Made by a program: the position numbers and the translations under genes
Shown: positions 60,526-61,338 of the stretch, piece by piece
Position numbering within the stretch: position 1 is the first letter of the stretch
Layout of the letters: every line of letters begins with the position of its first letter
Notes under the pieces: model-generated
Told to the model about the DNA's origin: nothing
Databases searched by the model: none
What the model saw: the letters and a program-made list of their open reading frames with translations, nothing else
Assembly: GCF_009914755.1 (NCBI RefSeq)
Contig: NC_060925.1
Strand: one strand, 5' to 3'
DNA: 64,000 bases
Source of the DNA: the human T2T-CHM13v2.0 reference genome, Homo sapiens

Positions 60526-61338
60526 CTAAGAGTCATTAGTGTAGGAAATTTTCTTCCACAATAATGTTTTTAGGTTATTTAGTATCAAAGAATGTTCCAT
60601 TTCCATTTAATTTGCTGTGACTTTGAGAGCAATACAAGAATAAAGCTGCTTTTCTAATTCTTCACGAATTTCACTTGGAGCACCACGCAGTAGGTAGTCT
60701 TTGAGTAACTGACAAGCTTTTGCCAAGTTTGGTTGTATCACTTCTGAAGTACACTTCATTGTACTCTGATCACAGCTAGTTCTACAATCTGTGCCATAGA
60801 CACAGTCCAAATCAGACTCACAGTGACGATCCTTAATAAGTTCTTTCAGGTTTGTCTCTGGCACAATTTTTCTCATATCCACCATTTTCAAATCATACTT
60901 ATCATTATATCCTAGGTTTTTGGCACTAGTATCGCACATGAGGAAATTTCCGTAGGGGCCATGGAAAACATCTTCCACAAATTCTAGAAGTCCTATGGCT
61001 ATTTTGGCCTTTCTTGGCCATGATGGTGTGAACAGCTGATCCATGCTTCTTCTGAACCCAGATGGAATAAAAAGTTCAATGACCCAAGGAAGGCTTATTC
61101 CATAAAGAGAGGTATATTCAACACTTTCCATCACATAGAGGTCACCACAGAATCCCATTAATTTGGGGGTATGTTCTTTATCTTGAAGTATCACCATGAG
61201 AAGAAATTCATTCAGTTGAAGAAGTGCCCATGCCGACTTTGCTTCTCCCAAGGAAACCTGGCCATCTTTGTCTCCATCAGCCACCGTCAAGATGAGATTA
61301 ACCAGTTCAGAGAGGTTTCCTTGGTCACCCAATTTTGC
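60526..61338 (-). CDS. DIPK1A: DIPK1A (FAM69A, divergent protein kinase domain 1A) last coding exon; in this sequence interrupted by TAA at 60609-60607
   Basis: Acceptor ttcttgacag|GCA AAA TTG. The exon encodes an EF-hand loop ([12 protein letters not shown]), a kinase-like C-lobe and a Cys-rich segment. The frame continues past the TAA to [26 protein letters not shown], with TAG at 60528-60526. Confidence 0.93.

What the first reader, a model, noticed from the sequence alone, without database searches (positions are those of the whole stretch)
60526..60609. Premature stop in the DIPK1A last exon (CAA>TAA, about p.Gln402*), removing the C-terminal 27 residues
The ORF ends ...[12 protein letters not shown] (60609-60607), but the same frame continues without stops for 26 codons ([26 protein letters not shown]) to TAG at 60528-60526. 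The DIPK1A C-terminus as I recall it is ...[32 protein letters not shown] (428 aa), so plus-strand A60609 replaces G. Being in the final exon, the allele should escape NMD and make a truncated protein lacking the last amphipathic helix of the kinase-like fold. It is either a real nonsense allele in this haplotype or a sequence error or edit. The TAA-A context does not favour readthrough.
Basis: partly seen in the sequence, partly recalled or inferred. Interest (0 to 1): 0.85.

Follow-up and report, generated by a model that had tools for sequence, protein, structure and literature searches.

The report
Known early stop in CHM13 DIPK1A
The T2T-CHM13 human reference carries a single-base change that ends the DIPK1A protein 27 residues early, removing its most conserved segment; the public RefSeq annotation already records this shorter coding region, so it is a real but catalogued allele.

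Summary
On the minus strand an in-frame TAA sits at window 60609-60607, after ...VTAN. Behind it lie 26 open codons and the usual TAG at 60528-60526. The window is identical to the stored reference over 601 of 601 bases, so this is not an edit of the window.

By exon arithmetic the stop is codon 402 of the 428-codon reading frame. In an alignment of 105 vertebrate DIPK1A/DIPK1B proteins that position is Q in 94, H in 8, L in 2 and E in 1. No sequence has a gap in the tail. The 27-residue tail is the most conserved 27-residue stretch of the protein, rank 1 of 402. An AlphaFold2 model of a 428-aa orthologue makes residues 403-422 a helix, with block-mean pLDDT 75-96 over 401-428.

RefSeq's CHM13 annotation already has three curated transcripts whose coding region ends at this TAA, giving 401, 356 and 342 aa. 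A fourth transcript is projected through the stop.

Verdict: a genuine nonsense allele in the last exon of the reference haplotype. It probably escapes nonsense-mediated decay and probably impairs the protein. It is already catalogued. Its population frequency could not be checked here. I did not find it in 8 paper searches. Interest is low.

The parts
60607..60609 (-). Premature stop codon TAA at codon 402 of the 428-codon DIPK1A frame. It is followed by A (TAA-A context).
   Evidence: It is also the coding-region end of NM_001426239.1, NM_001426240.1 and NM_001426241.1 (chr1:92688607 = window 60607).
60526..60606 (-). Orphaned tail: 26 intact sense codons (residues 403-428 of the full-length protein) plus the ancestral TAG stop at 60528-60526. 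On this allele it becomes 81 extra bases of 3'UTR.
   Evidence: 26 of 26 identical to the tails of P0001, P0002 and P0092. NM_001252271.2's coding region is still drawn to 60526. It is the most conserved 27-aa stretch in alignment A1 and forms a predicted helix at 403-422.
60610..61338 (-). Retained coding part of the last exon, residues 159-401. It holds the EF-hand loop and the C-lobe of the kinase-like domain.
   Evidence: Pfam PF12260 PIP49_C scores E 7e-74 over residues 36-237 of this 243-aa piece.
61243..61278 (-). EF-hand calcium-binding loop, residues 179-190, fitting the D-x-D-x-D-G-x-V-x-x-x-E pattern. It is unaffected by the stop.
   Evidence: Sequence. The motif definition comes from PMC3696010 (passages). 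The A1 profile gives weak matches to EF-hand proteins in the PDB (best E 3.1e-4).
60877..60933 (-). Predicted catalytic residues D294 (60931-60933), N299 and D312 (60877-60879). All lie upstream of the stop and are retained.
   Evidence: One search shows D, N and D at 294, 299 and 312. Residue numbering and roles come from PMC3696010 (passages).
59309..60525 (-). Annotated 3'UTR of the last exon: 1217 nt on the full-length allele and 1298 nt with the early stop.
   Evidence: RefSeq exon 59309-61338 (given with the finding). Lengths.

Best explanation
This is a genuine single-nucleotide nonsense allele of DIPK1A (formerly FAM69A) in the T2T-CHM13 reference haplotype. Codon 402, Gln in orthologues and most simply CAA, reads TAA. 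By arithmetic that is c.1204C>T, p.Gln402Ter in the 428-codon frame.

Shown: the stop is present in the assembly; it lies in the last exon; RefSeq curates 401-, 356- and 342-aa coding regions that end at it; and the deleted 27 residues are the most conserved segment of the protein and are predicted to form its final helix.

Inferred: the mRNA escapes nonsense-mediated decay, and translation ends at a strong TAA-A stop. The product is a 401-aa type II ER-membrane kinase-like protein. It keeps the EF-hand and catalytic residues but lacks the last C-lobe helix. Such a protein most likely folds poorly in the ER, or loses a conserved interaction surface, making the allele a hypomorph or null. This would be tolerated because DIPK1A is not essential.
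For: - Sequence.
- Same letters in the stored genome: 601 of 601 bases. The whole-genome protein search flags '1 TAA' inside the last-exon match.
- RefSeq: 3 of the 4 DIPK1A mRNAs placed on CHM13 end their coding region at window 60607. Neighbouring accession numbers on chr1 belong to FMO2 (471-aa coding region) and FCRL6. This suggests a batch of transcripts written for CHM13 alleles. That 471 aa is the known truncated FMO2 allele is my recollection.
- Conservation: in the 105-sequence alignment, position 402 is Q 94, H 8, L 2, E 1. There are no gaps in any tail column. Eight tail positions are invariant (H407, L409, L417, L418, W419, I422, S423, S428). The tail ranks 1 of 402 among 27-aa windows.
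- The paralogue DIPK1B in the same genome keeps a CAG Gln and an intact tail.
- Recency: the 26 downstream codons are unchanged from other mammals.
- Structure: AlphaFold2 on A1 gave mean pLDDT 81.4 and pTM 0.77. It predicts helix 403-422, with block-mean pLDDT 75, 96 and 90 over 401-428. The fold matches protein kinases; the best match is protein O-mannose kinase 5gza_A, E 2.9e-6.
- PMC3696010 states that kinase similarity spans about residues 225-415 of human FAM69A, which is past codon 402 (passages).
- Tolerance: homozygous Dipk1a-targeted mice were tested at 14 weeks, with only blood-chemistry phenotypes listed (PMC6996162 passages).
Against: - No reads, no second human assembly and no variant database could be consulted. 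Neither a consensus error nor the allele's frequency could be tested directly.
- The consequence for the protein is wholly inferred. No coordinates were returned by the predictor, so burial of the helix was not measured.
- The hydrophobic moment of the helix is not above shuffles.
- The Pfam PIP49_C model ends about 6 residues before the stop, so the curated domain model is not cut.
- AlphaFold2 does not predict stability, and I ran no model of the truncated form.
- PMC10203134 reports that kinase-dead human DIPK1C still rescued the fly aln mutant (passages). Function in this family therefore need not depend on catalysis, and a truncated protein could keep some activity.
Confidence: 0.88

Rival explanations
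1. Consensus or polishing error in the CHM13 assembly: the cell line really has the Gln codon and the assembly has one wrong base.
For: No reads could be inspected here. The whole finding rests on one base.
Against: The site lies in unique, non-repetitive coding sequence with no homopolymer at the changed base. RefSeq wrote three transcripts that end at this codon. The very low error rate of CHM13v2.0 is recalled, not tested here.
Confidence: 0.03
2. A mutation acquired in culture of the CHM13 cell line rather than an inherited allele.
For: Nothing specific. It cannot be excluded without reads or early-passage data.
Against: A new mutation in a cell line with two identical chromosome sets would be present on one copy only. 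It would be expected to appear as a heterozygous site, not as the consensus. This is inference, not a test.
Confidence: 0.04
3. The window's letters were altered relative to the public reference (an edit or planted change).
Against: The window matches G000 at 601 of 601 bases. The independent RefSeq table ends three coding regions at exactly this codon.
Confidence: 0.01
4. Programmed recoding: the TAA is read through, so the full-length protein is still made.
For: The downstream frame is intact for 26 codons.
Against: Orthologues and the paralogue have a sense codon here, not a conserved stop: 105 of 105 in A1, and DIPK1B has CAG. An intact downstream frame is simply what a recent mutation leaves. 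TAA followed by A is a strong termination context, and known leaky contexts use UGA or UAG (established knowledge, recalled).
Confidence: 0.02
5. The allele is real but functionally near-neutral: the 401-aa protein folds and works, and the tail is dispensable.
For: The catalytic residues and EF-hand are retained. The Pfam domain model ends before the stop. Mouse knock-out phenotypes are mild, so selection on the gene may be weak.
Against: The tail is the most conserved 27-aa window across 105 vertebrate DIPK1A/B sequences and has eight invariant residues. It is modelled as a helix with block-mean pLDDT up to 96 within the kinase-like fold.
Confidence: 0.12

Closest known systems
DIPK1A / FAM69A, the full-length 428-aa form (human transcript NM_001006605.5 as cited in PMC6996162; orthologue cluster P0092)
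   Same: Same locus and exon structure. The first coding exon has 54 nt, matching the c.54+ numbering in PMC6996162. The 243 residues up to the stop and the 26 residues after it are identical to the mammalian clusters P0001 and P0002.
   Different: Codon 402 is TAA instead of Gln. The product is 401 aa instead of 428 aa and lacks the predicted helix 403-422.
RefSeq NM_001426239.1, NM_001426240.1 and NM_001426241.1 (DIPK1A transcripts placed on CHM13)
   Same: Their coding regions end at chr1:92688607, which is window 60607 and this TAA. They give 401, 356 and 342 aa. This is the finding, already annotated.
   Different: Nothing differs at the sequence level. I could not read the records' comments, so I do not know why they were created or whether an allele frequency is given.
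FMO2 truncated allele (RefSeq NM_001426376.1 on CHM13, 471-aa coding region)
   Same: It is another chr1 gene whose CHM13 transcripts come from the same accession range and carry a shortened coding region. It is a precedent for a nonsense allele in a reference genome being represented by its own RefSeq transcripts.
   Different: That the 471-aa FMO2 form is a common, well-studied nonsense polymorphism is my recollection and was not tested here. I found no published description of the DIPK1A allele.
DIPK1B (chr9 paralogue in the same genome)
   Same: It has the same last-exon architecture and the same conserved tail. It is 51% identical to the query over residues 151-419.
   Different: It has an intact CAG Gln codon at the equivalent position and no internal stop.

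Membership tests
DIPK1 / FAM69 (PIP49) secretory-pathway kinase-like proteins | PIP49_C kinase-like domain (Pfam PF12260) | tested here: met
   The window's 243-aa last-exon piece scores E 7e-74, 248 bits (cut-off 25.2), over profile positions 1-188 of 189.
DIPK1 / FAM69 (PIP49) secretory-pathway kinase-like proteins | N-terminal cysteine-rich PIP49_N domain and transmembrane anchor | not tested
   These exons lie outside the window. PF14875 was seen only in the cow protein P0002. The model of P0092 has a long N-terminal helix at residues 16-53.
DIPK1 / FAM69 (PIP49) secretory-pathway kinase-like proteins | EF-hand loop DxDxDGx[IV]xxxE inserted in the N-lobe (definition from PMC3696010) | tested here: met
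   Residues 179-190 fit the motif (motif text). The A1 profile gives weak matches to EF-hand proteins.
DIPK1 / FAM69 (PIP49) secretory-pathway kinase-like proteins | Catalytic Asp, Asn and Asp (D294, N299, D312 in human FAM69A; PMC3696010) | tested here: met
   D, N and D are present at those positions in the window's translation.
DIPK1 / FAM69 (PIP49) secretory-pathway kinase-like proteins | Conserved C-terminal tail (residues 402-428), present in all aligned DIPK1A/B proteins | tested here: not met
   The tail is cut off from the frame by the TAA at codon 402. It is present without gaps in 105 of 105 aligned proteins. The gene is a family member; this allele's product lacks the feature.
Last-exon premature stop that escapes nonsense-mediated decay | The stop lies in the final exon, with no exon junction downstream | tested here: met
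   The stop is 729 nt into the 2030-nt last exon 59309-61338. Actual mRNA stability was not testable here.
Programmed stop-codon readthrough | A stop codon conserved in orthologues, with a leaky context and a conserved extension | tested here: not met
   Orthologues have a sense codon at this position in 105 of 105 sequences. The stop here is TAA followed by A.
Reference-genome nonsense allele with its own RefSeq transcripts (as for FMO2) | Curated transcripts whose coding region ends at the variant stop | tested here: met
   Three NM_ transcripts end at window 60607.
Reference-genome nonsense allele with its own RefSeq transcripts (as for FMO2) | Allele known to segregate in populations | not testable with these tools
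   No variant database, reads or other human assemblies were available. Paper searches found no mention.

The most novel reading that the evidence does not exclude
The 401-aa product is stable. Because it keeps the catalytic core and EF-hand but lacks the family's most conserved segment, it would be a natural separation-of-function allele. The CHM13 cell line would then be a ready-made homozygous model for finding what the invariant tail of DIPK1 proteins binds or does. If the allele also segregates at appreciable frequency, it could contribute to association signals reported at the GFI1-EVI5-RPL5-FAM69A locus (mentioned in PMC7118831).
Probability: 0.07. Interest if true: 0.5.

Novelty: already known. 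Interest (0 to 1): 0.2.

Why it matters
The main value is practical, for anyone who uses T2T-CHM13 as a reference. At DIPK1A the reference allele is a probable loss-of-function allele.

- If the allele is rare, genomes with the full-length protein will be called 'stop-lost' against CHM13.
- Annotation lift-overs and protein sets built from CHM13 will contain a 401-aa DIPK1A.
- One RefSeq transcript, NM_001252271.2, is still drawn through an in-frame stop.

Biologically, the finding shows that the last 27 residues are the most conserved part of a poorly understood ER kinase-like protein. It also points to CHM13 cells as a homozygous natural truncation. A single tolerated nonsense allele in one human haplotype is otherwise ordinary.

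Tried and rejected
- **Paper searches for the variant.**
  - DIPK1A + stop gave 6 papers.
  - FAM69A + nonsense gave 9 papers, 8 listed.
  - FAM69A + stop gave 11 papers.
  - The five RefSeq accessions gave 0 papers.
  - c.1204C, p.Gln402, Gln402 and Q402 together with either gene name gave 30 papers, 15 listed. None of the 15 listed had both a gene term and a variant term. The other 15 were not seen.
  - Passages read in PMC9685920, PMC5881966, PMC7118831, PMC11874971 and PMC9997556 do not mention this variant.
  - Two searches for how RefSeq treats CHM13 alleles gave nothing useful or nothing at all.
  - Supplementary tables were closed. Lists of loss-of-function variants or of CHM13-versus-GRCh38 differences in supplements could hold this site.
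- **Solved structures by sequence.** The single protein gave no match. The A1 profile gave only weak EF-hand matches. There is no experimental structure of a DIPK1 protein to place the tail.
- **Amphipathic helix.** The Eisenberg moment was not above shuffles, so I dropped the word 'amphipathic'.
- **Truncated-protein model.** I did not model the truncated protein. AlphaFold2 is not a stability predictor, and a cut-down sequence is not among the inputs the predictor says it accepts.
- **First protein search.** Its length limits (134-425 aa) excluded the canonical 428-aa form. A second search with P0008 recovered it.
- **DIPK1C.** It did not appear among the five scored matches, and I did not pursue it.
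- **Orthologous DNA.** No vertebrate DNA was available, so codon identity (CAA versus CAG) in other species was not checked.

Full report
**1. The observation**

Reading the minus strand from the start of the annotated last exon of DIPK1A (window 61338) gives 243 sense codons ending ...CIALKVTAN. Next comes TAA at 60609-60607, then 26 further sense codons ([26 protein letters not shown]), then TAG at 60528-60526. The plus-strand base at 60609 is A.

The four upstream coding exons in the RefSeq table total 474 nt, or 158 codons. The last exon therefore starts at residue 159, and the TAA is codon 402 of a 428-codon frame. By arithmetic this is c.1204, p.Gln402Ter.

**2. Is it really in the reference?**

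The window is identical to the stored CHM13 chromosome 1 over 601 of 601 bases around the site. A six-frame search of the whole genome with an orthologous protein returns the last exon as a 271-codon match, 99% identical, flagged '1 TAA' inside. An alteration of the window is therefore excluded.

I could not look at reads or at any other human assembly. A consensus error cannot be excluded directly. I give it a few per cent, because the site is in plain unique coding sequence and an independent annotation uses it (section 3).

**3. What the public annotation says**

The exon row supplied with the finding merges transcripts and shows only 'c:60526-61338'. The per-transcript table shows four DIPK1A mRNAs on CHM13.

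| Transcript | Coding region ends at | Product |
|---|---|---|
| NM_001426239.1 | chr1:92688607 (window 60607, the TAA) | 401 aa |
| NM_001426240.1 | chr1:92688607 (window 60607, the TAA) | 356 aa |
| NM_001426241.1 | chr1:92688607 (window 60607, the TAA) | 342 aa |
| NM_001252271.2 | window 60526, through the in-frame stop | 403 aa |

NM_001252271.2 has a different first exon.

NM_001426239.1 has 54 coding nucleotides in its first exon. This matches the 'c.54+...' intron numbering of NM_001006605.5 quoted in PMC6996162 (passages).

On chromosome 1, the accession numbers closest to these belong to FCRL6 and FMO2. FMO2 NM_001426376.1 has a 471-aa coding region. From memory, that is the length of the well-known truncated FMO2 allele. 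The pattern suggests a batch of RefSeq transcripts written to represent CHM13 alleles. I could not read the records to confirm this. Either way, the truncated coding region is already in a public annotation.

**4. What the stop replaces**

Two protein searches returned 169 named DIPK1A/DIPK1B proteins. The first search could only see proteins of 134-425 aa. The second, with P0008, recovered the canonical 428-aa clusters.

Of the 86 proteins, 83 carry the tail, with Q at the position in 78 and H in 5. The three exceptions are as follows:
- P0068, a record its source labels partial, which ends six residues earlier.
- P0061, with an aberrant C-terminus.
- P0086, with an aberrant C-terminus.

Of the 83 new proteins, my pattern matched 70. 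The 13 it missed were printed, and all show the tail with small substitutions.

I aligned 105 of the 169 proteins. I kept those of 400-450 aa and left out P0002, P0007, P0061, P0062 and P0085, which have aberrant ends. The results are:
- Position 402 is Q in 94, H in 8, L in 2 and E in 1.
- No tail column has a gap.
- H407, L409, L417, L418, W419, I422, S423 and S428 are invariant.
- The mean top-residue fraction is 0.919 for residues 402-428, against 0.76 for the whole protein.
- The tail is the most conserved 27-residue window, rank 1 of 402.

The paralogue DIPK1B in the same genome has CAG Gln and an intact tail.

The 243 residues before the stop occur unchanged in the clusters P0001 and P0002. 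The 26 residues after it are identical to P0001, P0002 and P0092. An intact downstream frame with no further change points to a recent mutation, not an old decayed gene. The ancestral codon is most simply CAA, one step from TAA. The change is then a C-to-T transition outside a CpG (T-C-A context). This is inferred, because no DNA of the other allele was available.

**5. Structure**

No solved structure is detectable by sequence. An AlphaFold2 model of the 428-aa alpaca (Vicugna pacos) orthologue P0092 was built with alignment A1. P0092 differs from the human last exon at 9 sense positions, plus the stop. The model has mean pLDDT 81.4 and pTM 0.77. It ends in a helix at 403-422, with block-mean pLDDT of 75, 96 and 90 over residues 401-428.

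Foldseek places the model among protein kinases. Protein O-mannose kinase 5gza_A is the best match at E 2.9e-6, followed by tyrosine kinase domains.

PMC3696010 states that kinase similarity spans roughly residues 225-415 of human FAM69A. It names D294, N299 and D312 as the catalytic and Mg-binding residues, and describes an EF-hand at about 165-190 (passages). In the window all three residues and the EF-hand loop (179-190) are present upstream of the stop. The Pfam PIP49_C model ends about six residues before the stop.

The allele therefore removes the last helix of the C-lobe and nothing else. The hydrophobic moment was 0.152 against 0.204 +/- 0.102 for 2000 shuffles, and 66% of shuffles scored at least as high. 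The helix is rich in invariant hydrophobic residues on more than one face.

**6. Mechanism**

Shown:
- A stop at codon 402 in the final exon, 729 nt from the last junction.
- 81 nt added to the 3'UTR.

From established rules (recalled):
- A stop with no downstream exon junction does not trigger nonsense-mediated decay.
- TAA followed by a purine terminates efficiently.

Inferred: a 401-aa membrane-anchored luminal protein is made without its terminal helix. It either misfolds and is degraded in the ER or loses a conserved interaction. The allele would then be hypomorphic or null.

Tolerance is plausible. Homozygous Dipk1a-targeted mice were tested at 14 weeks, and only raised alkaline phosphatase and lowered cholesterol are listed for that line (PMC6996162 passages).

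Against a simple 'null' reading, kinase-dead human DIPK1C rescued the fly aln mutant (PMC10203134 passages). The family's function is therefore not only catalytic. What the tail does is unknown.

**7. Rivals**

| Rival | Probability | Main point |
|---|---|---|
| Assembly error | about 0.03 | Cannot be excluded without reads |
| Change acquired in culture | about 0.04 | Would be expected to appear as a heterozygous site |
| Altered window | about 0.01 | Refuted |
| Readthrough | about 0.02 | Orthologues have a sense codon; strong stop context |
| Real but functionally near-neutral | about 0.12 | Argued against by the extreme conservation of the tail |

**8. Novelty and score**

The allele is already represented by three RefSeq transcripts, so it is known. 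I found no paper that describes it. Only 15 of the 30 hits were listed, and supplements were closed. A single tolerated nonsense allele in one haplotype is ordinary. Its main value is as a caution to users of CHM13 as a reference, and as a pointer to the exceptional conservation of the DIPK1 tail. Interest: 0.2.

Noticed in passing
window 63194-63317 (+): The RefSeq 'pseudogene' LOC124900443 is a full-length match to the H/ACA snoRNA family SNORA51 (RF00432; 109.5 bits against a gathering score of 50; model positions 1-133 of 133). It lies antisense inside a DIPK1A intron. Whether it is expressed or is a retrocopy was not examined.
   Followed up: no
window 60526-60609 (-); chr1.tsv.gz rows for DIPK1A: The annotation is inconsistent. 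NM_001252271.2's coding region is drawn through the in-frame TAA to 60526 (403 aa). Three sibling transcripts stop at 60607. The merged exon row given with the finding hides the shorter coding region.
   Followed up: yes
chr1 outside the window: FMO2 (chr1:170541681-170568989) and FCRL6 (chr1:158937524-158953270): Their only listed NM_ transcripts on CHM13 have accession numbers adjacent to the DIPK1A ones: NM_001426376, NM_001426378 and NM_001426379, and NM_001426235 to NM_001426237. FMO2's main coding region is 471 aa. This suggests a batch of RefSeq transcripts written for CHM13-specific alleles.
   Followed up: partly
window 61243-61278 (-): A canonical EF-hand calcium-binding loop (residues 179-190) sits at the start of the last exon, inside the kinase-like domain. 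The A1 profile's only PDB sequence matches are EF-hand proteins such as secretagogin and S100 proteins.
   Followed up: partly
window 54430-54524 (+) and 57861-57993 (+): SNORD21 and SNORA66 in RPL5 introns are recovered by Rfam at 107.2 and 159.9 bits, in agreement with the annotation.
   Followed up: yes
window 60544-60603 (-), residues 403-422: The predicted terminal helix is not amphipathic by the Eisenberg moment (0.152 against 0.204 +/- 0.102 for shuffles). Yet it holds 6 of the 8 invariant tail residues, and the tail is the most conserved stretch of the protein. This hints at burial on several faces or a binding role.
   Followed up: partly
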